Notes under the pieces: generated by a model
Told to the model about the DNA's origin: nothing
What the model saw: only the letters and a program-made list of their open reading frames with translations
Databases searched by the model: none
Program-made: the position numbers and the translations under genes
Assembly (NCBI GenBank): GCA_045630945.1
Contig: JAZQTV010000113.1
Coordinates: 8,700 to 72,699 of the forward strand
Source: Clostridia bacterium
GTDB taxonomy: Bacteria; Bacillota; Clostridia; Christensenellales; QALW01
Reading direction: 5' to 3'
Length of the DNA: 64,000 nucleotides
Shown here: positions 4,484 to 64,000 of the stretch, piece after piece
How positions within the stretch are numbered: position 1 is the stretch's first letter
Layout: each line of letters begins with the position of its first letter

Positions 4484-5569
4484 TTAATCAGATGAGTGCT
4501 CTTTAGTGCTTGGCTTGTAAATTAAAAGTGCAAGAATTATTGCCGTTACGCCTGAAATGACCTTTCCCACTATCATCGGCGCAATGTAATAGTTATCAAA
4601 CGCCATGGTAAAGGCAAGATGGCTTCCGAAAACGAAGGATGCGGAAACGGCAAATGCAGAGTTAAGAACAACGCCCTTTTTGTTCATTTTATCCATAACG
4701 CCAAAGGTAGAAGCATTGGTAACAAGGCTTCCTAAAAGCGCAATGGCGGAAACGCCGTCAATACCAACCTTATTGCTTAATTTGTTTAACGGCTTGTTTA
4801 AAAGCTTTGAAACGATAAACATAAACGGTAAAGCACCCGAAAGCGTTACACAGGCATTGGCACAGATAAATGCGGCATTTTCGAAGGTGTCAAGATAGGG
4901 CGATATCTGCTTTTTCGTAAGAAAGGTGAATATCGAAAGCACAAGACCTACAATTGCAAGCACCTTCATTATAAAGCCGAATACCGAAAAGCACTTTATT
5001 GCGCCTTCGGGCACTAAAAGAAGTGCGGCTATCAGTATTGCTGACAGTATGATAAGGGGAATAAGGTTAATTAAAAGGGGAAGAATGCTTATTTTGCACA
5101 TAAGCCCTGCAATAAGACTGCCCAAGGGGATAGTGATTATTCCGCACAAAAAGCCGAAAAACATTTCACGGTGTTGTTCCTTTTTTACGATTCCGATTGA
5201 AAAGGGAATGGTAAAGGACATTACGCAACCCATCATTGAAGAGATAATAAAGGCGTTGTAGCCGCCTATGCTTTGCGATTTTGCAATGCCTTGCACAAGG
5301 GGCATACCGCCCATATCGTTGGCAAAAAGCGATGCGGGTATTATGGAAGGGTCAATTTTAAAAAGACTATAAAAGCCTTCAAACATAGGTGTAAGCCATA
5401 CGCCTATTGCAGGCGCAATAATTATCATTCCAAGCATTGAAAGCGCCATAGGGCAGAAAAGGGAAAAAGCCTTTTCAAACTCCCTTCCCACACCAAGCCT
5501 GTTGCCGATTACGTAGTCAATGGCACCGAGAAGTGAAAATATTAAAATTACTATTGTTAAAGCGTTCAT
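4484..5569 (-). CDS. eutH: EutH-family (ethanolamine-utilisation-type) permease
   Basis: Polytopic 361-aa protein. ANDMGG, NSAFAVSASFVFGSHLAF and PMIVGKVISGVTAI match conserved EutH blocks recalled from E. coli EutH. Confidence 0.75.
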   Translation of the reverse strand: MNALTIVILIFSLLGAIDYVIGNRLGVGREFEKAFSLFCPMALSMLGMIIIAPAIGVWLTPMFEGFYSLFKIDPSIIPASLFANDMGGMPLVQGIAKSQSIGGYNAFIISSMMGCVMSFTIPFSIGIVKKEQHREMFFGFLCGIITIPLGSLIAGLMCKISILPLLINLIPLIILSAILIAALLLVPEGAIKCFSVFGFIMKVLAIVGLVLSIFTFLTKKQISPYLDTFENAAFICANACVTLSGALPFMFIVSKLLNKPLNKLSNKVGIDGVSAIALLGSLVTNASTFGVMDKMNKKGVVLNSAFAVSASFVFGSHLAFTMAFDNYYIAPMIVGKVISGVTAIILALLIYKPSTKEHSSD

Positions 5570-5578
5570 TTTAAAACC

Positions 5579-6553
5579 TCATTTCTTTTGTTGGGCAAAG
5601 GTTTTGATGCGGTGTCGCTCTTCACTGGGAGTTCTGCCTATAAATTGCTTAAAAACTCTGCCAAAGTAGCTTGGACTTGTAAAGCTTAATTTGTATGATA
5701 TTTCTTCAACCGAAAGGCTTGAGGAACGTAAAAACTCAACTGCGTGCAGGATTTTTACGTGGTTTATGTATTCCACAGGCGTCATATTAACGTCCTTACG
5801 GAAAAGCCTTATAAGGTGTTGTGCCGAAACGTTGGTTACCTTTTGCAGTTCTTCTATGGAGATTTTTTGGTCAAAATTCTTTCTTATGTATTCTATTGCA
5901 GGCTGAATGGGCGAATGTGACTGACGAGAAAGCGATGGGATTTTGCTTGATATAAAATGCTGTGAAAGTACGCTTTTTTGCATCATTAACAATAACTGCA
6001 CAACCGAAAGTGATGCTGAAATATGTGATGCCTTTGTGGCTTGACGGCAATCTTTGGATATTTCACTAAGCTTTTTAATGATTTCGTCAGCATTGCTTGA
6101 ACAGTGTGTTACCTGCGGCAGAAAAATTTCTTCAAAGTCAAGATCCTTTTCGTAGTACACCTTTTCGATGCGGTTTAACGTATCGTCGTAATCATCGTCA
6201 CTTATAAATGATACCGGCTTGGCAGTCTTAAAGTGAACGTACTGAAAACGGCAGGGTGTGTTTTCAATGGGCTTGCGGATGTAATCCTGCCCTGCAGGGA
6301 TAAGTATAGTATCACCTGCAGAGAGCTTGTAGGTCTTGCTTGCCAGTGTAAACGTGCACGAACCTTCAAGAACGGTTACCGTAATATTATTTTCGTCAGC
6401 ACAACGCCACACGGTCTGACGGGTTATTTCATAGGTTGAGATGATCTCGGGAATGGGAAAAATGCTTATTCTGTAATGCAATTTTACTGACACCCTCTTT
6501 ATAATGTTAAAATAGTGCGAGGTTATGTTAAAATAATTTCTTGCGCGTTGCAC
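5579..6553 (-). CDS. AraC family transcriptional regulator (cupin N-domain + HTH)
   Basis: C-terminal AraC HTH (AQHLIRLFRKDVNMTPVEYINHVKI...SPSYFGRVFKQFIGRTPSE). TGA stop. The listed GTG start lies only about 11 nt from the predicted transcription start, so the true start is uncertain. Confidence 0.8.
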   Translation of the reverse strand: MQRARNYFNITSHYFNIIKRVSVKLHYRISIFPIPEIISTYEITRQTVWRCADENNITVTVLEGSCTFTLASKTYKLSAGDTILIPAGQDYIRKPIENTPCRFQYVHFKTAKPVSFISDDDYDDTLNRIEKVYYEKDLDFEEIFLPQVTHCSSNADEIIKKLSEISKDCRQATKASHISASLSVVQLLLMMQKSVLSQHFISSKIPSLSRQSHSPIQPAIEYIRKNFDQKISIEELQKVTNVSAQHLIRLFRKDVNMTPVEYINHVKILHAVEFLRSSSLSVEEISYKLSFTSPSYFGRVFKQFIGRTPSEERHRIKTFAQQKK

Positions 6554-6570
6554 CTTGGTTACGTATAATT

Positions 6571-8208: not shown

Positions 8209-8211
8209 AAT

Positions 8212-10094: not shown

Positions 10095-10220
10095 AAATTT
10101 TACGTCCTTTTTTTATGCGCTGATACAAAAATAAATATATTAATATATGAGCATACAATAATATGATAGTGTTTGCCGTGGCTTTTCTTTTGTACAATGG
10201 TAGGAAAACTTAATAACGTT

Positions 10221-10811: not shown

Positions 10812-10848
10812 TTTACGTACCTTTCTTTATAGCTCAATTTAGCGTAAG

Positions 10849-11814: not shown

Positions 11815-11839
11815 TTTATATCTCCTGTGCGGTTAATTG

Positions 11840-13954: not shown

Positions 13955-14032
13955 ATGCCTACTCCTTTTTTAGTTGATAAAATGATACTATAATTATAAT
14001 TCATTATCAAAATATAATCAATAATCAAAATT

Positions 14033-14066
14033 AAAAAACGGCACGGAATTTAAGTTCCGTGCCGTT
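14033..14066 (-). terminator. rho-independent terminator
   Basis: Stem aacggcacggaa / ttccgtgccgtt followed on the minus strand by a T-run. Confidence 0.65.
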
Positions 14067-14070
14067 AATA

Positions 14071-15021: not shown

Positions 15022-15157
15022 TAAAATCACTCCTTTTCTAAGGTATTATATCAAACTGAAAACTAAAAGTAAATAAACGATTGCTTGAAAATATGCAAAT
15101 TTTTAAATTAACAGTTGAAAAAAAGCAGATAAAATGCTTTATCTGCCTTGTTTTTGT

Positions 15158-16854: not shown

Positions 16855-17106
16855 TTATAGCGTTACGGTAATAAGGTTATCTGACGAAGAAGAAACGTCT
16901 ATGATCTTTTTAACGGTTTTGCCGTTTGCGCTTATTTCAAGCTCGTACATTCCAAAGAAAACACGGAAAGCGCACGCGCCGTTATTATCGGTAACGGTAA
17001 TTGCCGCGTCACCCTTTCGGTATTTTTCGATACCCTCGTTAATTCTTTTGTCAAGCAGTTCCTTTTGCTCCTCAAAAAGCTCAAGAACCTTTTTTCTGTC
17101 ACTCAT
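16855..17106 (-). CDS. small hypothetical protein (83 aa)
   Basis: ATG at 17106 preceded by TAAGGAG (MSDRKKVLELFEEQ...). TAA stop, with a hairpin terminator downstream. Confidence 0.5.
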   Translation of the reverse strand: MSDRKKVLELFEEQKELLDKRINEGIEKYRKGDAAITVTDNNGACAFRVFFGMYELEISANGKTVKKIIDVSSSSDNLITVTL

Positions 17107-17160
17107 TTTTATCTCCTTACAGTAGCTGTTGCGTTTGTTAGGGTAAAGCATAAGCTTGAT

Positions 17161-18089
17161 TTAATCAAGATATTTCTTTAAAAAGTTAAGGTGGTTTTCA
17201 CCTGCAATTTTTTTAATTAACGTACTTGAATAGTTGCGTTTTTGCATTATTTCAAGCAAGCAATCGTGCATTGAACAGGATTCGCTTAATGGGGCGGGGT
17301 AGATACCGTCGCACCCGTCGATATCACAACCGAAGCCGATATTGTTTTCACCGCCAAGCTCAAGGCAGTGGTCAAGATGCCTGAAAAGATTTTCAGCGGT
17401 GCGCATATTTGGGATATCGTCAATAAATTCCGTGTACAGATTAAGCCCTATCATTCCGTCCTGCTTAATAATTTCCTTTGCCATTTCGTCGGTCAAATTG
17501 CGTGAATGACTGCAAAGGGAGCGAAAGTTAGAATGCGTTGCCATAATAGGCTTCTTTGATAATTCAAGCACTTGATAAAAGCTTCTGTCAGAAAGATGCG
17601 AAACGTCTAAAATCATTCCAAGACGGTTGCATTCCTTAACCGCTTCTATGCCCAATGGGGTAAGCCCCGTATCGTTGCCGAATTGGTCTAAACGGTTGCT
17701 TGTAGCAAGCTCGTTAGTAAGCCATGCAAGCCCGAATACGCGCACACCTCGGTTAAAAAAATACTCAAGATTTTTTATATCACCGTTTATTCCGCTACCA
17801 CCCTCCATTGTAAGCATAACTGCGTGCTTACCTTCGTTAAAGGCGGCTTCGATATCATTATAGCAGGTCACCTGCCTGATGTTTTCGTTTAAAAGACAGG
17901 CATTGAATTTTTCAAAATATCTGATCGTCCGCTGATAGCCTTTTTCAAGCTCAGCACCCGTCCACGGCGCAAAAAAGCCACAAACTGCAGCTGTTTGTGC
18001 TTCTTACTGAAATTATACGGGTTTACAAGGGGCAAAACACCCTCGTCAACACGCTGAATACTATCACAATGAGAATCAACAATAAACAT
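17161..18089 (-). pseudogene. membrane dipeptidase (peptidase M19) with a frameshift in a homopolymer run
   Basis: The N-terminal ORF (MFIVDSHCDS...LQFVAF) and the C-terminal ORF (DVSH, ATHSN, GFGCDIDG motifs) are in different frames. Adding one base to the A6 run at 17971-17976 (T6 on the coding strand) gives a continuous ...LQFVAFFAPWTGAELEKGYQRTIRYFEKFNACLLNENIRQVTCYND.... Confidence 0.8.
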
Positions 18090-24428: not shown

Positions 24429-24782
24429 TCATTTTGTATTCTCCTTAGCGGTTCTACAAGAAGCGATCAGCATAACACGCAAAGACGTACATTTTGCAGA
24501 AAGCGCTTTATATGATTGTTCATCGATGTAGTTGGTTTTGTGTAATAATTCAAGCCAATAGCCTGTTTCGCTTGCTTCTTTTAAGGCAATTTCAAGTTTT
24601 GAAACAAAGTCTTTCTTGCCTTGTGCGTACTGTGCTTCATGGATGTTGGCACCGATGCTCGTTCCGCTTCTGCCGATTTGGTTAGAAATAATAGATTCGT
24701 GGTTAGATTTTAAATGCTTTACAAGGTTGATAATATCAATAGAGAATTCCATTGACAGTTCTGCCAGCTTATTTTCCTTCAC
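24429..24782 (-). CDS. four-helix-bundle protein (23S rRNA intervening-sequence protein / Avd-like family)
   Basis: 117 aa; GTG start 7 nt after AGGAGG. IGRSGTSIGANIHEAQYAQGKKDFVSKLEIALKEASETGYWLELL is the hallmark of the TIGR02436-type family (recalled). TGA stop abuts repeat copy A. Confidence 0.8.
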   Translation of the reverse strand: MKENKLAELSMEFSIDIINLVKHLKSNHESIISNQIGRSGTSIGANIHEAQYAQGKKDFVSKLEIALKEASETGYWLELLHKTNYIDEQSYKALSAKCTSLRVMLIASCRTAKENTK

Positions 24783-24803
24783 GTAATCGCCTCCTTTAAA
24801 GAC

Positions 24804-24832
24804 ATTATATCATAAAATCCAGGATATTTCAA
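24804..24832 (-). promoter_or_regulatory. extended -10 promoter of the four-helix-bundle gene
   Basis: Minus strand reads TTGAAA (24827-24832), 17-nt spacer, TGATATAAT (24804-24812). Confidence 0.6.
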
Positions 24833-25002
24833 TGATGCATCGCCTACGGCGATATGATGCATTTGCTTTGCAAATATGATGTTGCTCCACTTCATTTTGC
24901 AATGATGCGATGTTTGCCATAAAATGTGGCGAAGCCACACATCATTTGCGAAGCGAACATCATTAGGCGAAGCCGTCATCATTTGCCGAAGGCAAACATC
25001 AT
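24832..25002. repeat. convergent array of eight ATGATG + short-hairpin units
   Basis: Plus strand has ATGATG at 24832, 24854, 24876 and 24902 (spacings 22, 22, 26). Its complement CATCAT is at 24940, 24958, 24977 and 24997 (spacings 18, 19, 20). Each hexamer sits next to a small hairpin; central palindrome tgtggcgaagccaca at 24925-24939. Confidence 0.8.
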
Positions 25003-25003
25003 T

Positions 25004-25040
25004 CAAAAAACGCACCTTTGTCAGTAGACAAAAGTGCGTT
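25004..25040 (-). terminator. terminator downstream of tRNA-Ala
   Basis: 13-14-bp stem (acgcacctttgtc / gacaaaagtgcgt, one G-U pair on the minus-strand RNA) with loop agta, then a T-run on the minus strand. Confidence 0.75.
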
Positions 25041-25046
25041 TTTTGT

Positions 25047-25122
25047 TGGTGGAGATAGGCGGACTCGAACCGCTGGCCTGTTACATGCGAAGCAACCGCT
25101 CTACCAACTGAGCTATATCCCC
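25047..25122 (-). tRNA. tRNA-Ala (anticodon CGC), CCA encoded
   Basis: 76-nt cloverleaf folded by hand. Acceptor GGGGATA/TATCTCC with the G3:U70 alanine identity pair, D arm GCTC/GAGC, anticodon stem GTTGC/GTAAC with loop TTCGCAT, T loop TTCGAGT. One A49-C65 mismatch at the base of the T stem. Confidence 0.93.
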
Positions 25123-25272
25123 GTTACGCATATTATTTTATCACAAAAAACAAAAAACGCAAGCAAATTATGAAAAAATTAGCAACAATATTTTATCGAA
25201 TTCGACAAATTAGTATGTACTTTCGATTAAATATATGTTATAATATAAAAAAACGTACGGGGAATTGGTAAT

Positions 25273-26496
25273 ATGCGAAGAATATTTAAAATTCTTATTG
25301 CGGCGATAATTTTGCCGTGCCTTCTTTTTGCAGGCTGTGCGAAGAACGTTATTATTGAGGTATACAGTGCCGAAAACAACGTTCTTGTAAATAAACACGT
25401 TAAGGTTGAAACACTTTCGCCTGAGGTTGTGTTGCAGCAACTTTCACTTGCAGGGATGATTTCTGAAAATATTACGGTCAATGATTTTAAAAGTGAGGGC
25501 GGAGATAACGGCAGATATCTTACCATTGACCTTGGCGGTGATTTTACATCGTGGCTTTCCTCGCAGGAAGCATCGCTTCAAAAACTTATTATGCAATCAC
25601 TTGCCAACACCTTTATACATAACTATTCTGCAACGGATATTCTTGTGCTTTCGGACGGCGCGCCCATAAAAACGGGGCTTAATGATTTTTCGGGCAAGCT
25701 TTATTACGTGCAGGTGGGTACGACTCTTGAACAGATAGTAACCACACCGCCTGCAACGGCTGAGGTAATAACACCCACACCAACGCCTGAAATTACCCCC
25801 GAAGCAACAAAAGCACCGGCAACAACACCGGGACAGACACCACAAGGTCCATTTGCAACCCCTGAACGTGCTGAAGGCAAAAAATACGTTGCCATAACTT
25901 TTGATGACGGACCGCACAGTAAATACACCACTATGTTAGTGGACAAGCTTAAGGAATACAATGCTTCGGCAACCTTCTTTATAGTCGGCAACAGGGTTGA
26001 TTCCACTACTGCATCTGCAATAAAGTACGTTACCGATAACGGTTCCGAGCTTGCAATTCACGGCTATACTCATACAAAGTATTACAATAAATGTACCGAT
26101 GCGGAGTTTAAGGAAGAGCTTTCCAAAACTGCCGATGCAATAAAAAATGCCACGGGTACGGTGCCTACCCTCATGCGCCCACCGGGTGGAAGCATTACTA
26201 ACGATCGCGTTAAGGCGTCGGGGTATTCAGTAATACTGTGGAACGTTGATTCTGAGGACTGGAAGCATAAGAAGAACGATCAGTCCGAAGTTGATGCGAT
26301 AGTAAGCAACGTAATGAATAACGTTAGTGACGGAAGTATAGTTTTAATGCACGAATTGTATGAAAATTCGTACAAGGCATTCTGCGTTATAATCGAACAG
26401 CTTTATGCACAGGGATATGAGGTTGTTACGGTTTCCGAACTTTTAGGTACGCAAAATACCGTGCCGGGAACGAAGTATTACAGTGCAAAGAAATAA
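25273..26496 (+). CDS. polysaccharide deacetylase (NodB domain) lipoprotein
   Basis: Lipobox LLFAGC, a Pro/Thr-rich linker and NodB motifs VAITFDDGP, HGYTH and MRPPGG. TAA stop plus terminator. Confidence 0.85.
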   Translation: MRRIFKILIAAIILPCLLFAGCAKNVIIEVYSAENNVLVNKHVKVETLSPEVVLQQLSLAGMISENITVNDFKSEGGDNGRYLTIDLGGDFTSWLSSQEASLQKLIMQSLANTFIHNYSATDILVLSDGAPIKTGLNDFSGKLYYVQVGTTLEQIVTTPPATAEVITPTPTPEITPEATKAPATTPGQTPQGPFATPERAEGKKYVAITFDDGPHSKYTTMLVDKLKEYNASATFFIVGNRVDSTTASAIKYVTDNGSELAIHGYTHTKYYNKCTDAEFKEELSKTADAIKNATGTVPTLMRPPGGSITNDRVKASGYSVILWNVDSEDWKHKKNDQSEVDAIVSNVMNNVSDGSIVLMHELYENSYKAFCVIIEQLYAQGYEVVTVSELLGTQNTVPGTKYYSAKK

Positions 26497-26500
26497 AATA

Positions 26501-26527
26501 AAAAGCGGAGAATTCTCCGCTTTTTTG
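26501..26527. terminator. bidirectional rho-independent terminator
   Basis: Palindrome gcggagaattctccgc flanked by an A-run and T6. Confidence 0.7.
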
Positions 26528-27898
26528 TTACAGTGTTACACCGTCTTTGAAGATGGAAATTTCTTCGTAGCCGTTTAATTCGTTCTTTGTTTTTTCACCC
26601 TAGGCAACGGAAATTACGTAGTCAAAAAGTTCTTTTGTAAGCTCGTTGCCTTCAAGGGTTTTAGAAGCATCAAAGTCTATCCAACCTGATTTTTTTGTAG
26701 CTAAAATATTGTTGGTTGCGATTTTTACCGTGGGAATTGCGCTTCCTAACGGTGTGCCTCTACCTGTGGTAAACAGTATAAGATGCACACCTGCAGCCAT
26801 AAGATTTGTAACTGCAACAATATCGTTACCGGGACCGTTTAACAGTGAAAGACCGTTCTTTGTTACAGTATCACCGTAATCGAGTACGTCAACAACCGCT
26901 GAAAGACCACCCTTTTGCACACAACCTAATGATTTTTCTTCAAGGGTGGTAATTCCGCCATCCTTATTGCCTGGCGAGGGATTTTCGTATATTACCTAAT
27001 TATGACTTTCAAAATACGCCTTAAAATTATTTATAAGCGAAACGGTTTTATCAAACACTTCTTTTGTAGTGCAGCGCTTCATAAGTAAATGCTCTGCGCC
27101 AAACATTTCGGGAACCTCGGTCAGTACACAGCTTCCGCCCATTGAAACAAGCATATCACAGAATCTGCCTACAAGTGGGTTTGCGGTTATGCCTGAAAAG
27201 CCGTCGCTTCCGCCGCATTTAAGACCGATTTTTAAGCGCGAAACGTTGATAGCCTCTCGCTTAAAGGCGCTTGCGTATTCCTTAAGCTCGTTTATAAGTT
27301 TTACGCCCTCCTGAATTTCATCTTCAACGTCCTGCGTGTTTAAAAATTTTACGCGCTTTTCGTTCCAAGTGCCAAGAACCTTTTTGAATTCAGTAATATT
27401 GTTGTTTTCGCAACCAAGTCCAAGCACTAGCACACCTGCGGCATTAGGGTGATTAACCATGCCCTTAAGTATCTTTTGCGTAACGCTTTGGTCGTCGCCA
27501 AGCTGTGAACAGCCAAAGGGATGCTCAAAGCACTTTGCACCTGTCAAAAGCGCAAGCTTCTTTGAAACCTTGTTCACACAGCCTACGGTGTTTATTATCC
27601 ATATATCGTTTCTTATGCCCACGTCACCGTTTTCGCGTATATAGCCGTAAAAGTAAAGGTCGGTTTCTTTGATTTTTACGTAGCTTTCACTTGGCGCATA
27701 CGTGTATTCGATTTTACCCGAAAGATTGGTCTTAAGGTTGTGGACGTGCACGTGCTCATCCTTTTTTATATCCTCGGTTGCGTGACCGATAGGCTGACCG
27801 TATTTTATGATATTTTCACCCTTTTTTATGTCAAAACGTGCATATTTGTGACCGTTTTCAGTATTAACGTATACGTTGTCAAGATTGTTTATTATCAT
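26528..27898 (-). pseudogene. uxaA: altronate dehydratase (UxaA) with two in-frame TAG codons (pseudogene or amber read-through)
   Basis: One frame reads ...[12 protein letters not shown](26996-26998)[30 protein letters not shown]...DYVISVA-TAG(26600-26602)-GEKTKNELNGYEEISIFKDGVTL-TAA(26528-26530). Hallmark UxaA blocks continue unbroken after both TAGs and there are no frameshifts. Confidence 0.85.
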
Positions 27899-28450
27899 AC
27901 CGTTTCCTCAAATTCGTTTAATAAATATGAAAGATTCCAATCCTTTGCGGTTTTTAAAATGCATTTTTTTAAGTTTTCACCGTTTTTGTCAATCAGCTCG
28001 CAGGGCAAAAACACAAAGCCGTCAAGCTTTAACAAAAAGCGCTTGTAAAGCAAGCGTAACCTTTGCAGGAAAGCTTTTTGCAGGGCGGTCGGAAAGCTTA
28101 TCACCCTCGTTACAGGCTATACCTGCTTCCGTGGTGTTCGAAATTATGTACTTAAGCTCCTTTTGTTCGGCCAATTTCAAGTATCCGTCAAAATCGGTGA
28201 ACGGGTTTAACGTGCGTGAAATTACGTCGATCTTCTTTACGTCAACACCCTCAATACCGCGGCAGACGTGGGTGTATTCACAGTTTTGCGCGGCAAGCAC
28301 GTTGCATAAGCCCTTTTTAATTGGCTGAACTACAACTACGCTTCCGTTAAAATTACTTTTTTCGTTTACTATCTGAAGCATCCAATCGGCAAAGCCGCGT
28401 AAGAAGCCGCCCTCACCGAACTGAATTACTTTTTCTGTTCTTAATGTCAT
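27895..28450 (-). pseudogene. uxaB: tagaturonate reductase/altronate oxidoreductase (UxaB) remnant: frameshifted and missing the C-terminal half
   Basis: N-terminus VIQFGEGGFLRGFADW...NTTEAGI matches UxaB. The frame breaks near 28055-28057 (KVT|RLLYKRF needs one extra base). The second frame ends at ...[17 protein letters not shown], about 213 aa versus about 480 aa for E. coli UxaB (recalled). Its stop overlaps the uxaA ATG. Confidence 0.75.
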
Positions 28451-28452
28451 TA

Positions 28453-29259
28453 TTATTTCTCCTTGTTTATTGCGCTGTACTTATGGGGCGTTATACCTGT
28501 TAAGCGCTTGAATTCACTTATAAAATAATTACTGTTATTAAAGCCGCATTTTAAAGCAATCTGCGTTATGGAATATTTACCTTCCTTTAAAAGCTTTTCG
28601 GCACAGTTAAGCCTTGTAAGCTTTATGAAATGGGAAACACCAATGCCCGTGTATTGCTTAAATGTGCGCGAAAAATGGCTTTCGCTCATTGCGTGCGCCT
28701 GCGCAAGCTTTTTTAAGGTGATGTCCTCGCATAAGTTTTCGGAAATATACCTTGCTGCGTTCTGAATAATAATTTCGTTTTCGGAAAGCTTATCTGCCTT
28801 AAGGTGCTTTTCGCTTCTGAAAAGAATTACTATAAGCTGACGCAAAAGATTTTTTGATTGCTCAAGATAGTAATCGTTTTTTTCGGTGTATTCCTTATAA
28901 AGCAGGGTGAACAGCGCCTTTACGTTATCAGCCTTTATAAAAAGTTTTTTCTTGCCAAGCTCGTTTAACATCTCCGCATATTCCTCACCTACAAATTCGG
29001 AAGAAAAGCTTAAAAGAATTCTTTCTGAATCACTTTCACTTTCGTAGGCGGTCTTGTGCACGTATCCGCTTTTTATAAAAACCGATTCACCCTCGTTTAC
29101 GTGAATTATTTCGTTATTGATAAAATACTTGGTTTTTCCACTTAAAAGAAAATAAAGTTCGTGATACGCATGAAAATGCTTTTGTACTACGGACTCGTTT
29201 TTTTTCTTTTTGTTCTGCTGCGCGTTAAAGCCTTCGTTATACGCTAAAAAGTTTTGCAC
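28453..29259 (-). CDS. AraC family transcriptional regulator (cupin + HTH)
   Basis: C-terminal AraC HTH (SESHFSRTFKQYTGIGVSHFIKLTRL...NSNYFISEFKRLTGITPHKY). TAA stop. Heads the uxaB/uxaA remnant operon. Confidence 0.85.
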   Translation of the reverse strand: MQNFLAYNEGFNAQQNKKKKNESVVQKHFHAYHELYFLLSGKTKYFINNEIIHVNEGESVFIKSGYVHKTAYESESDSERILLSFSSEFVGEEYAEMLNELGKKKLFIKADNVKALFTLLYKEYTEKNDYYLEQSKNLLRQLIVILFRSEKHLKADKLSENEIIIQNAARYISENLCEDITLKKLAQAHAMSESHFSRTFKQYTGIGVSHFIKLTRLNCAEKLLKEGKYSITQIALKCGFNNSNYFISEFKRLTGITPHKYSAINKEK

Positions 29260-29405
29260 CCTATCACCTCACAGATAAAATAACACAATAATCTGCCAAA
29301 GTCAAACAAAAAAATGAAGTTTTTGATGAAATTGGGCAATAAAATTATAGAAATATGATTAAAATAACGGTATAATAGAATGCGAAAAAACTGTAACGGG
29401 AGGCT

Positions 29406-30599
29406 ATGAATGTGAAAAAATACGTTCAGGTTGGTTGCGGAGTTCGCGGTGTTATGAGTTATTCCGTTCCGCTTGTGAAGGAATATGCCGAATACGGTGA
29501 GCTTTTGGGTGTGTACGACATAAACAGAAAACGCGCAAAATACGTTTCGGAAAGAACGGGTAAGGATATTCCCGTGTATGACGATTTTACAAAAATGCTT
29601 GAGGAGGTTAAACCCGATACGGTTATAGTTACCTCCATCGATTGCACGCACGATAAGTACACTATCGAAGCACTTAATTTCGGGTGTGACGTTATTTGCG
29701 AAAAACCGCTTACCACTACCTTTGAAAAAAGCCTTAAAATAAAAGAGGCTGAAGAAAAAAGCGGCAAAAAGGTTACCATTACCTTTAATTTAAGATTCCA
29801 TCCGTTTTATATGGAACTTAAAAGAGTTGTGGATTCGGGCGTGCTTGGTGACGTTTTAAGCGTTCATTACGAATGGATGCTCGGTCAGTCCCACGGAAGT
29901 GATTATTTCCACCGTTGGCATTCGGAAAGGGAAAAATCCGGATCACTTTTAATACACAAATCCACACATCACTTTGATATTGCAAACTGGCTTTTAAAGC
30001 AGGACCCCGTGAGCGTAAATGCTTTTGGCACAAGGCGCGTGTTCGGTGATTCGTTCCCTGCCCCTGCAAAGCGTTGCTATGAATGTGAAAATCATTGCAA
30101 TTACTACGTTGATATTTTAAAGAACGGCTTAAAGGAATTTTATCTTGACTGTGAGGATGAGGACGGTTACCTTCGCGACAGATGCGTATATTCTGAAAAG
30201 GTAGATATCGAGGATACTGTAAGCGTAAACGTTCTTTACAGCGGCGGCACGGTTATGAGCTATACTTTAAGCGCATTTTCGCCCTATGAAGCAATGCGCA
30301 TTGTGTTAAACGGCACAAAGGGAAGGATTGAAGCAAGCTCAAAAACCCGTACCATTGACGTGTTCGGTGTTGACGGAAGCCATGACACAACCAAGGTGCC
30401 TGTGGTTTCAAACAGCAACCACGGCGGTGCTGACGTTAATTTAAGGGACAATTTGTTTAAGAACGTTCCCACCGAAATGCCTGATCAGTCAGCAGATATT
30501 CGTGCAGGAATGATGTCACTTGGTATTGGTCTTGCGGCAAACCTTTCAATGAAGGAAAAACGCAGAGTAAATTTAGACGAATTTTATAAAGATATTTAA
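29406..30599 (+). CDS. Gfo/Idh/MocA family oxidoreductase
   Basis: N-terminal Rossmann VQVGCGVRG and EKP motif (VICEKPLTT). GGGAGG RBS and TAA stop. Confidence 0.8.
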   Translation: MNVKKYVQVGCGVRGVMSYSVPLVKEYAEYGELLGVYDINRKRAKYVSERTGKDIPVYDDFTKMLEEVKPDTVIVTSIDCTHDKYTIEALNFGCDVICEKPLTTTFEKSLKIKEAEEKSGKKVTITFNLRFHPFYMELKRVVDSGVLGDVLSVHYEWMLGQSHGSDYFHRWHSEREKSGSLLIHKSTHHFDIANWLLKQDPVSVNAFGTRRVFGDSFPAPAKRCYECENHCNYYVDILKNGLKEFYLDCEDEDGYLRDRCVYSEKVDIEDTVSVNVLYSGGTVMSYTLSAFSPYEAMRIVLNGTKGRIEASSKTRTIDVFGVDGSHDTTKVPVVSNSNHGGADVNLRDNLFKNVPTEMPDQSADIRAGMMSLGIGLAANLSMKEKRRVNLDEFYKDI

Positions 30600-30614
30600 T
30601 GGGAGGAATTTTTT

Positions 30615-31349
30615 ATGGAAATAAGAATTTGTAAGGACCGCTATGAATTAGGTAAAAGTGCGGCAAAATTTGTGGCAAACGAGATTAATCGTGTTATAAG
30701 CGAAAAGGGAAGCGCGCGCATTGCGCTTTCGACGGGTGCTTCACAGTTTGATACCCTTGCCAATTTAATAAACGAAGACGTTCAGTGGGATAAGGTAGAA
30801 ATGTTCCACCTTGATGAATACGTTAATCTTCCTGAATCGCACGTTGCAAGCTTCAGAAAATATTTAAAGGAAAAGTGCACCACAAAGGTGAACCTTAAAG
30901 CAGCATATTTTGTTGACGGTACCGAGGAAAACCGTAAGGAATTATGTAAAAAGATTTCAGAATCACCCATTGATATCGGTCTTATCGGTATCGGTGAAAA
31001 CGGACACATTGCATTTAATGATCCGCCTGCGGATTTTGATACGGAGGAGCCGTACATAGTTGTAAACCTTAACGATACCTGCAAGAAGCAACAGGTGGGC
31101 GAGGGCTGGTTCCAAACTGTTGACGACGTACCGAAGCAAGCAGTTTCAATGTCTGTTAAGCAGATTATGAAGTGCAACAAAATCGTAAGCTGTGTGCCCT
31201 ATGCAGTAAAGGCTGATGCAGTATTAAAAACTCTTTCGGGCGAGTTATCAAACCTTGTTCCCGCAACAATGCTTAAAACCCATCCCGAATTTACACTCTA
31301 TATTGATTGGGATTCGGCAAGCAAGCTTAATATGCCTGTTTTATGGTAA
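30615..31349 (+). CDS. glucosamine-6-phosphate deaminase/6-phosphogluconolactonase family protein (NagB-like)
   Basis: ALSTGASQ, FHLDEY and GIGENGHIAFNDPPADF blocks. TAA stop plus terminator. Confidence 0.75.
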   Translation: MEIRICKDRYELGKSAAKFVANEINRVISEKGSARIALSTGASQFDTLANLINEDVQWDKVEMFHLDEYVNLPESHVASFRKYLKEKCTTKVNLKAAYFVDGTEENRKELCKKISESPIDIGLIGIGENGHIAFNDPPADFDTEEPYIVVNLNDTCKKQQVGEGWFQTVDDVPKQAVSMSVKQIMKCNKIVSCVPYAVKADAVLKTLSGELSNLVPATMLKTHPEFTLYIDWDSASKLNMPVLW

Positions 31350-31353
31350 TATA

Positions 31354-31388
31354 AAAGATGCACGATAGATAATTCGTGCATCTTTTTT
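31354..31388. terminator. bidirectional rho-independent terminator
   Basis: Stem aagatgcacga / tcgtgcatctt followed by a T-run. Confidence 0.7.
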
Positions 31389-31394
31389 ATTCTT

Positions 31395-32033
31395 TTAACC
31401 GTGGGCAAAATATCGGTATGCCGTAACAATGCTTGTGCTTAATAAAATTCCGCCTATAATATCCGTAAGCCAATGCACGCCTGAAACGAGCCTGCCTGCT
31501 ACCATAAACAAGGTGAATACGCAAATCAGTACGCATACCGTTTTTTTGAAGACGGTGTTTTTAATTCGTATTTTAAGCTGTATTGCCGCGGTAGGCATAA
31601 TGCTTAACACAAGCAATGTAGTTGACGAGGGGTACGATGCTTCAAGGCTTCCGTTAATAAGCACGGGTCTGTAATTTATTATAACGTATTCGAATAATAA
31701 GTAAAATGCAAAGGCTAAAATATAAGATGCGCCAAGCACGAAAAGATTGCGGTCAACTAAAAAAAGTCGTTTCCTTTTTACCCACTGTAAAATACCAAGT
31801 AACGCAAAGCCTGCCGTAACGGAAACGGGAATAATGCTTAACCAATCGGTTATTACGTAAAGGTGCATATGCGTTCCGATTATGCGGTGAACAAAGCCGT
31901 TTAGTGAAGAAAATCCCACGTTGGTGCCGTTTTGACCTATGGGTGCTACGTCAATAAATTTCACTGCCACCGTCCATAAAATGAATGCTATCAGCAATAT
32001 TAAGGAAGCGTAAAGATGTTTTTTCTTTTTCAT
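31395..32033 (-). CDS. PAP2-family membrane phosphatase-like protein
   Basis: Polytopic protein with NYRP and GRLVSGVHWLTD matching PAP2 motifs 1 and 3. The central PSGH position reads YPSSTT, so the histidine is absent. Confidence 0.65.
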   Translation of the reverse strand: MKKKKHLYASLILLIAFILWTVAVKFIDVAPIGQNGTNVGFSSLNGFVHRIIGTHMHLYVITDWLSIIPVSVTAGFALLGILQWVKRKRLFLVDRNLFVLGASYILAFAFYLLFEYVIINYRPVLINGSLEASYPSSTTLLVLSIMPTAAIQLKIRIKNTVFKKTVCVLICVFTLFMVAGRLVSGVHWLTDIIGGILLSTSIVTAYRYFAHG

Positions 32034-32144
32034 TTTTCTACCTGCCTTTTTCTGTAATCGAGTTTTACCCTGTCACAGAATAGCGCAAGATATAAAAATG
32101 CACAAGAAACGGAAGCTCACAGCCGTGATACTTTTCGTGTCACG

Positions 32145-32747
32145 CTATTTTTTTATAAGTATTGATGCCTTTATTACTAAAAAAATCATTAAAAGAACTG
32201 CCGCATAGGGCTGTTGGCTTATAACGAATAAAAGCGTGCCTGCAATATTTAAAAGTAACGATATTTTGTACTTTAAGCTTAACCAGCTTGAATGCTCGCA
32301 TCCCTGAAGTGAAAGGGTAATAACGCCCCAAACGGTTGTTCCGATTACTACAATAAAATAAGCCGTTTTTAAATACACGGCAATATCCGCAAGCGTTAAA
32401 AGGGAAACGGCGTATATCATACCGTCAGCTTTTTTATTAAAGAACGGCAAAAATAAAAGCATGGCAACGCTTATATCAAGAAGCCCGAATATAACGTCGC
32501 GAAAACGGCTTTTTATGTTTTTTGTATCAGCCTGAGAAAGAATAAGCAATTCTTCGCCGGATAAAAGCTCGTCAACGGTTATACCGAAAAATTTTGATAT
32601 GGCTTTTAGTGATTCTATGTTGGGGTATCCTCTGCCCGATTCCCATTTTGAAATTGCGGTGCGCGAAACAAAAAGCTTTTCAGCCAATTCGTCCTGGGTT
32701 AACCCCCGTTGTTTTCTTAATTCCTGTAATTTTTCGTTAAATTCCAT
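32145..32747 (-). CDS. XRE-family helix-turn-helix regulator with C-terminal transmembrane region
   Basis: N-terminal LRKQRGLTQDELAEKLFVSRTAISKWESGRGYP followed by about 4 hydrophobic segments. Ends at TAG. Confidence 0.8.
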   Translation of the reverse strand: MEFNEKLQELRKQRGLTQDELAEKLFVSRTAISKWESGRGYPNIESLKAISKFFGITVDELLSGEELLILSQADTKNIKSRFRDVIFGLLDISVAMLLFLPFFNKKADGMIYAVSLLTLADIAVYLKTAYFIVVIGTTVWGVITLSLQGCEHSSWLSLKYKISLLLNIAGTLLFVISQQPYAAVLLMIFLVIKASILIKK

Positions 32748-32890
32748 AATATTGCTCTTTTGTTGATTTTTTTTATATTATATCACAGTTTGGTTGATAG
32801 TTAAAGAGTATATTGAAAATTAGCTTAAAACAAAATGCCCTGCAAGCTTGTGCAGGACATTGTTGCCGTGTTCGGTTTAAAGCGGTACTG

Positions 32891-33607
32891 TTATTTGCCC
32901 GAAAAGCTGCTCAAATAGCTTTGCGGATTAACTGCCTTTCCGTTTTTTAGTACCTCAAAATGCAAGTGAACGCCGTCGGCAGATTCGCTTGCACCTGAAT
33001 TACCCACGTTGCCTATTGCCTGTCCCCTTAATACCGAAGCGCCCTCTACGATGTTTTCGGGTACGGATTCAAGGCAGGAATATACGGTTTCAATACCGTT
33101 TTCGTGGCTTATTTTTACCGTAAGCCCCATAAGCGCATCATTGGTTACACTTGCAACTGTGCCGTCAAGCGCCGCAAGCACGGTAGCACCTTCACTTGCG
33201 GTAAAATCCATTGCGGTATGGGTTGCCCAATGTTTAAGGGTATTGGAATATACAAGGCTGTCAGAAGCATATCCTTTAAGCACGGAAGCATCGTTTATAG
33301 GGTTGAGCATTGCTTTTGTTACCGTGCTTTCTGCCGAAACGGATGAATCGGTTTCATCCTGACTTGGATTGGGCGCAGGTGTAACGGAAGGCTTTTCGAT
33401 GGTAATGCCGCCATCGTTTGAAGCAGGTGCTTCGGTGGGCGCAGGTGCTTCTAAAACAGGTGCCTGTTCTGCAGGCTGCGCGGTAAGCGCAACAAGATAC
33501 GTCACCGAAAGCGCCGCCACGCAAAAGACTGCCGTTACTGTAAAGATTCTTTTTACATTCTTCTTTTTTAATATTGATGATTTATCCTTGATTGATCCAA
33601 GATTCAT
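32891..33607 (-). CDS. M23 family metallopeptidase (membrane-anchored)
   Basis: ATG at 33607 follows GGAGGTG. N-terminal TM segment. C-terminal HTAMDF...GNSGASESADGVHLHFEV. TAA stop. Confidence 0.85.
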   Translation of the reverse strand: MNLGSIKDKSSILKKKNVKRIFTVTAVFCVAALSVTYLVALTAQPAEQAPVLEAPAPTEAPASNDGGITIEKPSVTPAPNPSQDETDSSVSAESTVTKAMLNPINDASVLKGYASDSLVYSNTLKHWATHTAMDFTASEGATVLAALDGTVASVTNDALMGLTVKISHENGIETVYSCLESVPENIVEGASVLRGQAIGNVGNSGASESADGVHLHFEVLKNGKAVNPQSYLSSFSGK

Positions 33608-33710
33608 AAAATCAACACCTCCGTTGTATATTTTTTCCGTTCTTGAAGCCAATATACGCGATTTTATGGAAAAACAATGAATAAATTACAAAATTTTTGT
33701 TTTCACAATA

Positions 33711-33739
33711 TTGACATCAGGTCCTTGATTTGTTAAAAT
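33711..33739 (+). promoter_or_regulatory. promoter of the glg operon
   Basis: TTGACA (33711-33716), 17-nt spacer, TAAAAT (33734-33739). Confidence 0.6.
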
Positions 33740-33780
33740 ATAATCAGCAATCAATATATACGTTAATAGGAGGCAACCGA

Positions 33781-41006: not shown

Positions 41007-41036
41007 AAAAAATCCTGCAAATTGCAGGATTTTTTT
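41007..41036. terminator. bidirectional rho-independent terminator
   Basis: Stem atcctgcaa / ttgcaggat flanked by an A-run and a T-run, between convergent genes. Confidence 0.75.
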
Positions 41037-43170: not shown

Positions 43171-43184
43171 CAAATCCTTTGAAT

Positions 43185-44522: not shown

Positions 44523-44581
44523 AATAAAACCTCCTTCCTTAATTTTGACGGGTGCGATTATAATAACACAAAACCAAACTT

Positions 44582-44590
44582 TTATCAACA
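44582..44590. promoter_or_regulatory. DnaA-box-like site (one mismatch)
   Basis: TTATCAACA versus consensus TTATCCACA. Overlaps a candidate -35 of dnaA. Confidence 0.5.
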
Positions 44591-44626
44591 AAAAAAACGC
44601 AAGTTTTTAAAGAATTTTTCAAAAAT

Positions 44627-45674: not shown

Positions 45675-45681
45675 ATTTCAT

Positions 45682-62788: not shown

Positions 62789-64000
62789 ATGAGAAAAATA
62801 CAGAAATGGGTATCGGATGAGCTTGAATTCAATGCTCGCATTAAAGTAAATGATATTTTTGAAGCAGAAGCAGACCTTATCCTTGTTCATCAGGAAACGA
62901 AAAAGGAGTATAAGGTGCCAATGTTCTGGGACGGCGGCTTCTCATGGAAGGCACGTTACGTGCTTACCGAGCTTGGCGCTTGGGATTTTGCCGTTAAGGA
63001 ATCAGGCGAGCTTAATCTAGGTATTGATGGTATTTCGGGCACAGTATCCTGCGTGGAGTATGAAGGTGACCTTGAAATTTATAAGCGCGGCTTTGTAAAA
63101 ACACAGGAAAACGTCCGCTATTTCACATACGCTGACGGCACACCGTTCTTCTATTTGGGTGATACCCATTGGAATATGGTTAAAGAAGAATTTGATTCTG
63201 CAGGCGAAGGCGCAGGAAATATCGAAACCGATTCTCATTTTAAATACATTGTTGACCGCAGAGTTGAACAGGGATTTACCGTTTATCAGTCAGAGCCCAT
63301 CGGCGCAAACTACAACGTTCGCGACGGTGTTATCAGCGATGAAGACCTTGCGGGATTCAAAGAGCTTGATAAGTATTTTAAATATATTGCAGAAAAGGGT
63401 CTTGTTCACGCAAATGCTGAACTTGAATTCCCCAGTGCCGCAAAGCACGAAGACTTCTGCAAGAATATTAAGCCTCTTACACGTTATTGGGTAGCACGTT
63501 ACTGCTCATATCCTGTTATGTGGACGCTTGGTCAGGAAGTTGACGATGCACGTAACTTTGGCGAGGGCATTTTTGAAACCTATAAGATTATGTGTGAGCA
63601 CATTGCTGAAATAGATCCTTACAACAGCCCCATTTCTGCACATCAGCTTAATGCACAGGGCGTTGGTGTTGACGGCGGCGTGCCTGTTGCAGGTATTGAC
63701 GGCGGCTATAACAACTATAACCCCGAAGCAACTACCCGTAGCGGACTTACACGTGCTTCCGAGTTCAAGAACGTTAAGGGACACACTTGGTGGGCAAATC
63801 AGTGGCGTCCTGTTGTTGATCAGCAGTTCAACTTCGGCATTCCCAGGGATTATTGGGAAAACGGTCAGAAGAAGCCCGTTGTTGATTACGAAGCAAGATA
63901 TCACTTCCTTTACGGCGGTGACTTCTGTATGCGTGCACAGGCTTGGATTGGTTATATGTGCTTTATGGGTCACGCTTACGGCGGCGCTGATATGTGGCTT
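62789..64000 (+). CDS. cytoplasmic paralog of the DUF5060/DUF4038 (GH140-like) protein, 3' end outside the window (absent from the ORF track)
   Basis: ATG at 62789 lies 8 nt after AAGGAG. Hand translation gives 404 codons open to the window edge with no stop. MFWDGGFSWKARYVLTELGAWDF...YFTYADGTPFFYLGDTHWN...WTLGQEVDD parallels the upstream gene. No signal peptide. Confidence 0.75.
   Translation, partial: MRKIQKWVSDELEFNARIKVNDIFEAEADLILVHQETKKEYKVPMFWDGGFSWKARYVLTELGAWDFAVKESGELNLGIDGISGTVSCVEYEGDLEIYKRGFVKTQENVRYFTYADGTPFFYLGDTHWNMVKEEFDSAGEGAGNIETDSHFKYIVDRRVEQGFTVYQSEPIGANYNVRDGVISDEDLAGFKELDKYFKYIAEKGLVHANAELEFPSAAKHEDFCKNIKPLTRYWVARYCSYPVMWTLGQEVDDARNFGEGIFETYKIMCEHIAEIDPYNSPISAHQLNAQGVGVDGGVPVAGIDGGYNNYNPEATTRSGLTRASEFKNVKGHTWWANQWRPVVDQQFNFGIPRDYWENGQKKPVVDYEARYHFLYGGDFCMRAQAWIGYMCFMGHAYGGADMWL

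What the first reader, a model, noticed from the sequence alone, without database searches (positions are those of the whole stretch)
26528..27898. uxaA (altronate dehydratase) carries two in-frame TAG codons yet remains full-length and motif-complete
- The ORF track splits this gene into a 300-aa piece and a 106-aa piece and misses the last 23 codons.
- Read in one frame, it gives ...[40 protein letters not shown]...LFDYVISVA-TAG-GEKTKNELNGYEEISIFKDGVTL-TAA, about 456 codons.
- The segment after each TAG contains hallmark UxaA blocks, including the canonical C-terminal ...IFKDGVTL.
- Very little decay has therefore followed the stop codons, if they act as stops at all.
Basis: seen in the sequence. 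Interest (0 to 1): 0.6.

Follow-up and report, generated by a model that had tools for sequence, protein, structure and literature searches.

The report
Recently broken altronate dehydratase gene (pseudogene)
The two in-frame TAG codons in uxaA are real, but they are most likely ordinary, very recent nonsense mutations in a sugar-acid operon that this gut Clostridia species is losing, because the partner gene uxaB next door is frameshifted and half deleted and a sister strain has deleted uxaA altogether.

Summary
On the minus strand, 26528..27898 reads as a 456-codon UxaA-family gene. It has TAG at codon 301 (26996-26998) and at codon 433 (26600-26602), and its length and C-terminus match 120 intact homologues.

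The hint that TAG may not act as a stop is not supported:
- **uxaB is destroyed.** The co-transcribed upstream gene uxaB (tagaturonate reductase) has a 2-bp deletion and has lost about 237 codons.
- **A sister strain lost uxaA.** A 99 %-identical strain (JGI contig L139) carries a different deletion that removes uxaA except for its last codons.
- **TAG is an ordinary terminator here.** At least four good genes in the window end at TAG.
- **No single amino acid fits.** A third in-frame TAG, in a metallophosphoesterase gene, is GAG (Glu) in the sister strain. uxaA codon 301 is an invariant Gln.
- **No recoding machinery was found.** The window holds no suppressor tRNA and no recoding RNA element.

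The lack of decay is real: 178 of 179 invariant columns are kept. It is explained by age, since all lesions arose within about 1 % sequence divergence.

Verdict: a young pseudogene in a decaying operon. This is ordinary and of low interest. Reads were not available, so assembly error cannot be formally excluded.

The parts
26528..27898 (-). uxaA pseudogene (UxaA/GarD-family dehydratase, altronate dehydratase type). It has 456 codons plus TAA and is otherwise intact.
   Evidence: It is 76-85 % identical to intact homologues of 455-467 aa (nearly all 455-457) that sources name altronate dehydratase.
26996..26998 (-). In-frame TAG number 1, codon 301. It replaces a Gln that is invariant in 120 of 120 homologues. 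Relatives use CAG in 67 loci and CAA in 11.
   Evidence: A single C-to-T transition from CAG is enough.
26600..26602 (-). In-frame TAG number 2, codon 433. The column is variable (Asn 57, Asp 23, Ser 19, Gly 11, Glu 9, Ala 1). The closest relatives use AAC or AAT.
26500..26525 (-). Intrinsic terminator hairpin plus T-run just after the uxaA stop codon. It lies between uxaA and the convergent deacetylase gene.
   Evidence: 11-pair stem. The hairpin is conserved in the sister strain L139.
27895..28450 (-). uxaB remnant (tagaturonate reductase). It keeps only the N-terminal Rossmann part. The called ORF 28022..28450 is 142 aa, against 420-422 aa in relatives.
   Evidence: Mannitol_dh profile positions 2-91 of 199; NF002969 tagaturonate reductase, positions 14-151 of 482.
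28053..28054 (-). Site of a 2-bp deletion in uxaB (AA is missing relative to sister strain L139). It shifts the frame at about codon 132.
   Evidence: nucleotide alignment with L139; tblastn switches from frame -1 to frame -2.
27930..27931 (-). Junction of an internal deletion of about 0.7 kb in uxaB. Codon about 172 (...KDWNL) is joined to the last 11 codons ([11 protein letters not shown]), so the whole Mannitol_dh_C domain is gone.
   Evidence: (L001 positions 9233-9999 have no counterpart).
28453..29259 (-). AraC-family regulator, intact. It is the first gene of the AraC-uxaB-uxaA cluster, which is conserved in relatives.

Best explanation
uxaA is a young pseudogene. The ancestor of this uncultured Clostridia (Oscillospirales-like) species carried the cluster AraC-uxaB-uxaA, encoding tagaturonate reductase and altronate dehydratase, as its relatives still do. 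Within this species the pathway has stopped being needed, and the operon is being lost by independent lesions in different strains. In the window strain, uxaB took a 2-bp frameshift and an internal deletion of about 0.7 kb, and uxaA took two nonsense substitutions to TAG. One of these is a simple CAG-to-TAG transition at an invariant Gln. In a sister strain that is 99 % identical, a deletion between two 13-bp direct repeats fused the end of uxaB to the last 17 codons of uxaA and removed the rest of uxaA. TAG is read as stop, so at most a 300-residue N-terminal fragment lacking most of the catalytic C-terminal domain would be made. The rest of the reading frame still looks perfect only because too little time has passed for further substitutions. 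The lesions, the sister-strain allele, and the use of TAG as a terminator are shown by the data. That the pathway became dispensable, and that the TAGs terminate translation in vivo, are inferred.
For: - **Relatives have an intact cluster.** They carry AraC, uxaB (421-422 aa) and uxaA (456 aa).
- **uxaB is broken in the window.** Only 554 bp lie between AraC and uxaA. uxaB homology covers residues 3-132 in one frame and 123-172 in another, then stops. Alignment with the same-species contig L139 shows a 2-bp deletion and the deletion junction at 27930/27931.
- **A sister strain has a different disabling allele.** L139 is 98.9-99.0 % identical to window 24928-26588 and 27931-33756. It lacks window 26589-27930, which is uxaA. 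Instead it has a 420-aa uxaB::uxaA' fusion ending ...ILKNELNGYEEISIFKDGVTL, joined at the shared sequence AAAGAACGAATTA.
- **TAG is a working terminator.** It ends genes for a beta-lactamase-like protein, a GH39-like protein, an HTH_3 protein and a TIR-LRR protein. The next in-frame stop follows only 3-23 codons later, or the next gene starts immediately. TAG accounts for 7 of 59 stops of ORFs of at least 150 codons.
- **A third in-frame TAG points to ordinary mutation.** The TAG at 11170-11172 in a metallophosphoesterase gene is GAG (Glu) in sister strain L138, and Glu in 110 of 113 homologues. In-frame TAGs in this strain therefore replace Gln, Glu and a variable Asn/Asp/Ser site.
- **Other disabling lesions occur nearby and in the sister strain.** The Peptidase_M19 gene is frameshifted at a T6 run. 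The sister strain's beta-lactamase-like gene carries GGA-to-TGA, a 1-bp indel and a 369-bp deletion.
- **Three TAGs out of three nonsense codons is not unusual.** The expected TAG share of random nonsense mutations with this codon usage is 0.37-0.45, which gives p of about 0.05-0.09.
- **No recoding machinery was found.** The only tRNA in the window is tRNA-Ala(CGC), and there is no other Rfam hit.
Against: - uxaA shows no sign of relaxed constraint apart from the TAGs. It keeps 178 of 179 invariant columns and deviates from conserved columns less than the average intact homologue.
- dN/dS downstream of each TAG is 0.04-0.07, the same as upstream and the same as in intact-versus-intact pairs. 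That test has no power for a lesion younger than about 1 % divergence, because dS to the nearest other species is saturated above 1.
- Two nonsense mutations with no other damage in the same gene is somewhat more than a rough estimate predicts. About 0.3-0.6 nonsense events are expected for 0.5-1 % neutral divergence.
- All three nonsense codons in the window are amber.
- No reads were available, so the base calls themselves are unverified.
- No second assembly covering the two TAG positions exists in the collections searched.
Confidence: 0.85

Rival explanations
1. Assembly or sequencing error: the true sequence has sense codons at both sites and uxaA is intact.
For: - The window comes from an NCBI assembly (contig of 79,893 bp) that is probably metagenome-derived. 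No reads could be inspected.
- One other broken gene, Peptidase_M19, is frameshifted in a T6 homopolymer, which is a typical place for sequencing errors.
- uxaA is otherwise flawless.
Against: - Over 22 kb aligned to the sister-strain contigs, the differences look evolutionary rather than random: 75 synonymous, 63 non-synonymous and 33 outside the listed genes, with transitions dominant.
- The few indels in those alignments are not in otherwise intact genes. The only one scored inside a listed gene (window 9704) lies in the gene that is decayed in the sister strain, and the 2-bp deletion lies in the uxaB remnant.
- Only about 3-4 % of random substitutions create stops. Three stop-creating errors would imply roughly 85 other substitution errors in the window.
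- The 2-bp deletion and the 0.7-kb deletion in the adjacent uxaB are not typical sequencing errors. They already make the operon non-functional, so real nonsense mutations in uxaA are expected.
Confidence: 0.08
2. Amber suppression or partial read-through: the strain carries a suppressor tRNA, for example from a TAG-recoded prophage, or has weak RF1 activity. Full-length UxaA and the metallophosphoesterase would then still be made at some level, and the TAG-containing genes would remain under selection.
For: - All three nonsense codons in the window are TAG, and all three are followed by G.
- The sequences downstream remain open and conserved. The metallophosphoesterase keeps its GHDH motif after the TAG.
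- Gut phages are known to recode TAG to Gln with their own suppressor tRNAs (papers listed, e.g. PMC7886860 and 10.1101/2021.08.26.457843).
Against: - TAG terminates at least four well-supported genes in the window.
- The TAGs replace Gln, Glu and a variable Asn/Asp/Ser site, so no single inserted residue restores all of them.
- There is no tRNA(CUA) in the window.
- Three of three being TAG has p of about 0.05-0.09 by chance.
- UxaA would lack a supply of altronate from tagaturonate, because UxaB is destroyed, unless another copy exists elsewhere in the genome.
- The sister strain has lost uxaA, so there is no selection for it in the species.
- The literature retrieved describes amber recoding in phages whose hosts use the standard code.
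Confidence: 0.03
3. Genome-wide reassignment of TAG to an amino acid (Gln as in code-15-like systems, or pyrrolysine).
For: TAG number 1 sits exactly on an invariant Gln, which is the residue that TAG encodes in recoded phages.
Against: - Only 3 in-frame TAGs occur in about 17,000 codons, and they sit in 2 genes.
- TAG is 12 % of terminators, with proper gene ends.
- The sister strain has GAG (Glu) where the metallophosphoesterase has TAG.
- Intact homologues never carry TAG at these sites.
- No Pyl genes or recoding RNA element were seen in the window.
Confidence: 0.01

Closest known systems
Strain-specific pseudogenes from recent nonsense and frameshift mutations and deletions in bacterial catabolic operons (known from Salmonella Typhi, Shigella and Yersinia pestis; from general knowledge)
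   Same: The gene is a homologue of a functional enzyme gene and carries disabling point lesions. The neighbouring gene of the same pathway is also disabled. The lesions are polymorphic between strains of one species. The rest of the ORF is still pristine because the lesions are young.
   Different: Nothing differs in kind. Here the evidence comes from metagenome-derived contigs, and the loss of function is not tested by phenotype.
UxaA altronate dehydratase / GarD galactarate dehydratase family (Pfam SAF + GD_AH_second + GD_AH_C; E. coli GarD structure 6U7L)
   Same: The full three-domain architecture is present and the length is 456 aa. The NPSPGNK block and the C-terminus are conserved. The gene sits directly downstream of uxaB (tagaturonate reductase), as in relatives.
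   Different: The reading frame is interrupted twice, and translation to the first TAG would give only 300 residues. The NCBIfam galactarate dehydratase equivalog scores below its cut-off (241 against 731 bits). The altronate dehydratase assignment therefore rests on names given to homologues and on gene context, not on an assay.
TAG-to-Gln stop-codon recoding in gut phages (Crassvirales, Lak and others) with phage-encoded suppressor tRNAs
   Same: An in-frame TAG sits at a position where homologues have an invariant Gln, and the setting is a gut-type Clostridia community.
   Different: This is a chromosomal region near dnaA and oriC, not a phage. There are very few in-frame TAGs. TAG is used as a terminator. 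Another TAG replaces Glu. No suppressor tRNA was seen.
Pyrrolysine decoding of UAG (pylTSBCD, methylamine methyltransferases)
   Same: There is an in-frame UAG in an enzyme gene of a Firmicute.
   Different: The enzyme family is different. Homologues have ordinary residues (Gln, Asn) rather than UAG at these sites. No pyl genes were seen in the window.

Membership tests
UxaA/GarD dehydratase family | SAF + GD_AH_second + GD_AH_C domain architecture over the full length | tested here: met
   SAF residues 17-56; GD_AH_second residues 85-209 (E = 4e-42); GD_AH_C residues 219-454, covering profile positions 1-241 of 242 (E = 4e-100).
UxaA/GarD dehydratase family | Uninterrupted reading frame encoding the whole enzyme | tested here: not met
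   TAG at codons 301 and 433. All 120 homologues are intact.
UxaA/GarD dehydratase family | Altronate dehydratase specificity (UxaA rather than GarD) | tested here: inconclusive
   Homologues are named altronate dehydratase by NCBI, and the gene follows tagaturonate reductase. NCBIfam offers only the GarD equivalog, which scores below its cut-off. There is no assay.
Bacterial pseudogene | Disabling lesions that are absent from orthologues | tested here: met
   the two TAGs fall where 120 homologues have Gln, or Asn/Asp/Ser/Gly/Glu/Ala.
Bacterial pseudogene | Independent evidence that the function is dispensable or lost (pathway partners decayed, or the gene absent in close relatives) | tested here: met
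   uxaB is frameshifted and has lost about 237 codons. The sister strain L139 lacks uxaA.
Bacterial pseudogene | Relaxed constraint (raised dN/dS, substitutions at conserved sites) in the gene itself | tested here: not met
   178 of 179 invariant columns are kept; omega is 0.04-0.08 in all segments. This is expected if the lesions are younger than about 1 % divergence, and the test has no power at that age.
Bacterial pseudogene | The lesions are real in the DNA rather than assembly errors, and no full-length protein is made | not testable with these tools
   No reads or proteomics were available. No second assembly covers the sites.
TAG sense-codon reassignment or amber suppression | TAG is rare or absent as a terminator of conserved genes | tested here: not met
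   7 of 59 long ORFs end in TAG. Four Pfam-supported genes end at TAG, with 3-23 codons to the next in-frame stop.
TAG sense-codon reassignment or amber suppression | In-frame TAGs align with one consistent amino acid across genes | tested here: not met
   Gln (invariant), Glu (110 of 113 homologues; GAG in the sister strain), and a variable Asn/Asp/Ser site.
TAG sense-codon reassignment or amber suppression | Presence of tRNA(CUA), and loss or alteration of RF1 | tested here: inconclusive
   No tRNA(CUA) is present in the 64-kb window. The rest of the genome is not available.

The most novel reading that the evidence does not exclude
The strain carries a low-efficiency amber suppressor, for instance a tRNA(CUA) acquired from a TAG-recoded phage. 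That would let amber mutations persist in non-essential genes such as uxaA and the metallophosphoesterase while those genes stay partly expressed. It would explain why all three nonsense codons in the window are TAG and why the downstream sequences are still perfect.
Probability: 0.03. Interest if true: 0.6.

Novelty: already known. Interest (0 to 1): 0.1.

Why it matters
It matters little beyond annotation. The locus should be annotated as a uxaA pseudogene next to a uxaB pseudogene, not as two short proteins and not as a recoding candidate.

It is a tidy small example of a catabolic operon, the tagaturonate/altronate branch of galacturonate use, being lost within one gut Clostridia species. 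Two strains carry independent and roughly reciprocal lesions: one keeps uxaA and loses uxaB, and the other does the opposite.

It also shows that a perfect-looking sequence after a stop codon is not evidence of read-through when the lesion is younger than about 1 % divergence. If the minority reading of amber suppression in a chromosomal bacterial background were true, it would be of real interest, but nothing here requires it.

Tried and rejected
- **Same-strain or same-species copies of uxaA.** I searched for these to see whether the TAGs are shared.
  - The exact 300-aa piece, the deacetylase and AraC are not on record in the contig index.
  - The GTDB species representatives give at best 84 % identity.
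  - The metagenome contigs give at best 77 %.
  - The 300-aa and 106-aa pieces are singleton clusters.
  - Only the flanks were recovered, through cluster mates of neighbouring proteins. These gave L138 and L139.
- **5-methylcytosine deamination at Dcm-type CCAGG sites.** I considered this as the source of the ambers, because two of the TAGs sit in CTAGG and CCWGG is under-represented (13 observed against 35 expected). I rejected it as a general explanation. The metallophosphoesterase TAG derives from GAG, a G-to-T change. uxaA TAG number 1 would come from TCAGG. The closest relatives have AAC or AAT at TAG number 2.
It is uninformative because dS to the nearest species is saturated.
- **Antisense ORFs** overlapping uxaA and uxaB (27876..28328, 27740..28048, 26646..26879, 27069..27314). 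None has a Pfam hit.
- **Other in-frame stop read-through candidates** from the mechanical scan.
  - 4484..6568 (TGA) is two separate genes, AraC and EutH.
  - 63099..64000 (TAG) translates to low-complexity nonsense.
  - 16855..17151, after a TAA, has no family hit.
- **Rfam scan of the whole window.** Only the tRNA was found.

Full report
**1. Observation**

The minus strand of window 26528-27898 translates in one frame to 456 codons plus TAA. There are exactly two internal stops, and both are TAG: codon 301 (26996-26998) and codon 433 (26600-26602).

With X placed at the two stops, the product matches SAF, GD_AH_second and GD_AH_C over their full lengths. It also matches 120 intact proteins of 455-467 aa (nearly all 455-457) at 76-85 % identity, best E = 2e-260. 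Where a source names them, they are called altronate dehydratase, from Clostridia or Oscillospiraceae MAGs.

**2. What the TAGs replace**

- In an alignment with the 120 homologues, codon 301 is Gln in 120 of 120. Codon 433 is variable: Asn 57, Asp 23, Ser 19, Gly 11, Glu 9, Ala 1.
- At the DNA level, relatives have CAG (67) or CAA (11) at codon 301, so one C-to-T transition is enough. The closest relatives have AAC or AAT at codon 433.
- In the solved E. coli GarD structure (6U7L), the aligned residues are Thr and Ser. Neither site is universally conserved across the wider family.

**3. Surroundings: the operon is wrecked**

- In relatives the cluster is AraC, then uxaB (421-422 aa, with Mannitol_dh and Mannitol_dh_C), then uxaA (456 aa).
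- In the window only 554 bp lie between the AraC stop (28453) and the uxaA start (27898).
- The 142-aa ORF at 28022..28450 matches only the N-terminal Rossmann part of Mannitol_dh. It also matches only positions 14-151 of 482 of the tagaturonate reductase model NF002969.
- tblastn with the relatives' UxaB shows residues 3-132 in frame -1, residues 123-172 in frame -2, and nothing after that.
- At the nucleotide level, L001 positions 9233-9999 have no counterpart in the window.

**4. A same-species sister strain**

The window's own proteins exist in the protein collection as singletons from one NCBI contig of 79,893 bp. Cluster mates of neighbouring proteins led to two JGI contigs from metagenome 3300041665. 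Both are about 99 % identical to the window.
- L138 corresponds to window 3884-15328.
- L139 corresponds to window 24928-26588 plus 27931-33756.

L139 has the deacetylase gene, then a 420-aa uxaB ORF, then AraC, with no uxaA. Its uxaB ORF ends ...FIKNASVQDILKNELNGYEEISIFKDGVTL*. This is the uxaB body fused to the last 17 codons of uxaA at a shared 13-bp sequence, AAAGAACGAATTA (KNEL). That pattern indicates a deletion between short direct repeats. The repeat is too short to be an assembler mis-join.

Aligning the window's uxaB remnant with L139 pinpoints two lesions in the window strain:
- a 2-bp deletion (AA, between 28054 and 28053);
- a deletion junction at 27931/27930 that joins ...KDWNL to [11 protein letters not shown], the native uxaB tail, which overlaps the uxaA ATG.

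Two strains of one species therefore carry independent, mutually exclusive disabling alleles of the same operon. Together they allow the intact ancestral operon to be inferred.

**5. Is TAG a stop in this organism?**

Among ORFs of at least 150 codons, the stops are TAA 37, TGA 15 and TAG 7. Four Pfam-supported genes end in TAG: the beta-lactamase-like, GH39-like, HTH_3 and TIR-LRR genes. In each, the next in-frame stop lies only 3-23 codons beyond, or the next gene's ribosome-binding site and ATG follow immediately. The only tRNA in the window is tRNA-Ala(CGC), and Rfam finds nothing else.

The scan did reveal one more interrupted gene. A metallophosphoesterase gene (ATG at 11814) has TAG at 11170-11172, followed by 106 more open codons that contain the GHDH metallophosphatase motif. 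In the sister strain L138 this codon is GAG (Glu), and it is Glu in 110 of 113 homologues.

The in-frame TAGs in this strain thus replace Gln, Glu and a variable polar residue. That is the signature of independent nonsense mutations, not of a codon with a meaning.

With this genome's codon usage, 37-45 % of random nonsense mutations are expected to give TAG. Three of three being amber therefore has p of about 0.05-0.09.

**6. Why so little decay?**

The window's uxaA keeps 178 of 179 columns that are invariant in the 120 homologues, and 226 of 228 columns conserved at 97 % or more. It deviates less than the average intact homologue. dN/dS against relatives is 0.04-0.08 both upstream and downstream of the TAGs, the same as for intact-versus-intact pairs.

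These comparisons are with species whose dS exceeds 1, so they mostly record the long period of purifying selection before the lesions. The sister strain differs from the window by only about 1 % (172 differences in 22 kb: 75 synonymous, 63 non-synonymous, 33 outside the listed genes). The operon lesions differ between the two strains.

If constraint was lost within that time span, I estimate only about 2-4 changes across the 179 invariant columns and about 0.3-0.6 nonsense mutations. The observed values (one change, which is the TAG itself, and two nonsense mutations) are within reach of this, especially since the locus was picked because it looked striking. Pristine downstream sequence is what a young pseudogene looks like.

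**7. Error or real mutation?**

Reads were not available. Several points argue against error.
- The strain-to-strain differences have an evolutionary spectrum, with transitions dominant and synonymous changes at least as common as non-synonymous ones.
- The few indels in the 22 kb of alignments are not in otherwise intact genes. The one scored inside a listed gene (window 9704) lies in the gene that is decayed in the sister strain, and the 2-bp deletion lies in the uxaB remnant.
- Only about 3-4 % of random substitutions create stops.
- The neighbouring lesions (a 2-bp deletion and a 0.7-kb deletion) are not typical sequencing artefacts.

I give error about 8 %.

**8. Comparison with known systems**

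This behaves like, and is, an ordinary strain-specific pseudogene in a decaying catabolic operon. It belongs by sequence to the UxaA/GarD family but fails the intact-ORF criterion.

It is not an instance of TAG recoding. In gut ecosystems such recoding is documented for phages whose hosts use the standard code (papers retrieved, e.g. PMC7886860 and 10.1101/2021.08.26.457843). This window is chromosomal: dnaA lies at 43185-44591 and rnpA-yidD-yidC-jag at 45915-48277. It is not pyrrolysine decoding either, because homologues have ordinary residues at these sites.

**9. Verdict**

The description is right, but the read-through hint is not supported.
- The best explanation is a young pseudogene (0.85). 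The rivals are assembly error (0.08), amber suppression (0.03) and reassignment (0.01).
- Novelty is "already known"; interest is about 0.1.

Noticed in passing
window 10849-11814 (-), TAG at 11170-11172: A second gene is interrupted by an in-frame TAG. It is a metallophosphoesterase gene of 321 codons, called as a 214-aa ORF, and its GHDH motif lies after the TAG. The 99 %-identical sister strain (L138, protein P0241) has GAG (Glu) there, and 110 of 113 homologues have Glu.
   Followed up: yes
window 17161-18089 (-), T6 run at 17971-17976: The Peptidase_M19 (membrane dipeptidase) gene is split by a frameshift at a T6 homopolymer. The N-terminal 66-aa ORF (MFIVDSHCDS...) is in one frame, and the remaining 280 codons (Pfam profile positions 60-318 of 319) are in another. 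It could be a real slippage mutation or a homopolymer sequencing error.
   Followed up: partly
L139 1806-3068 (-) (JGI Ga0451923_2884257): The sister strain carries a uxaB::uxaA' fusion ORF of 420 aa. It was created by a deletion between two copies of AAAGAACGAATTA. uxaA is gone, and uxaB keeps nearly its normal length with a foreign 17-residue tail.
   Followed up: yes
L138 about 5108-6015, corresponding to window 9081-10112: In the sister strain the beta-lactamase-like gene, which is intact in the window (337 aa), is decayed by a GGA-to-TGA nonsense change, a 1-bp indel and a 369-bp deletion. Each strain therefore has its own set of pseudogenes.
   Followed up: partly
whole window: Short palindromes and methylation-type motifs are strongly under-represented against a Markov expectation: CTAG 18 against 76, CCGG 102 against 392, GATC 180 against 336, and CCWGG 13 against 35 (counts over both strands). 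This suggests restriction-modification pressure or methylation-linked mutation.
   Followed up: no
window 56602-59120 (-): Two adjacent, overlapping genes encode TIR-domain proteins: TIR plus BspA-type LRR (380 aa) and TIR plus GNAT (464 aa). They have weak PADLOC hits to ThsB-like and other TIR defence proteins. This may be a defence locus.
   Followed up: partly
window 24429-25122 (-): A gene for a 23S rRNA-intervening-sequence protein family member (117 aa) overlaps by 4 nt a 78-aa ORF of unknown function. Both lie next to tRNA-Ala(CGC) at 25047-25122.
   Followed up: no
window 1281-4398, 38447-39664, 41035-43173, 48312-51061, 59298-60944: Several long ORFs (405-712 aa, plus a 227-aa ORF at 48312-48995) have no Pfam hit at E <= 0.001. 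They include a 712-aa ORF directly next to dnaA.
   Followed up: no
window 43185-48277: This is the chromosomal origin region. dnaA is on the minus strand, and rnpA, yidD, yidC and jag are on the plus strand. serS, glgB and glgC/D lie nearby, and a GlnRS-type synthetase gene lies at 54688-56343. The window is therefore bacterial chromosome, not a mobile element.
   Followed up: partly
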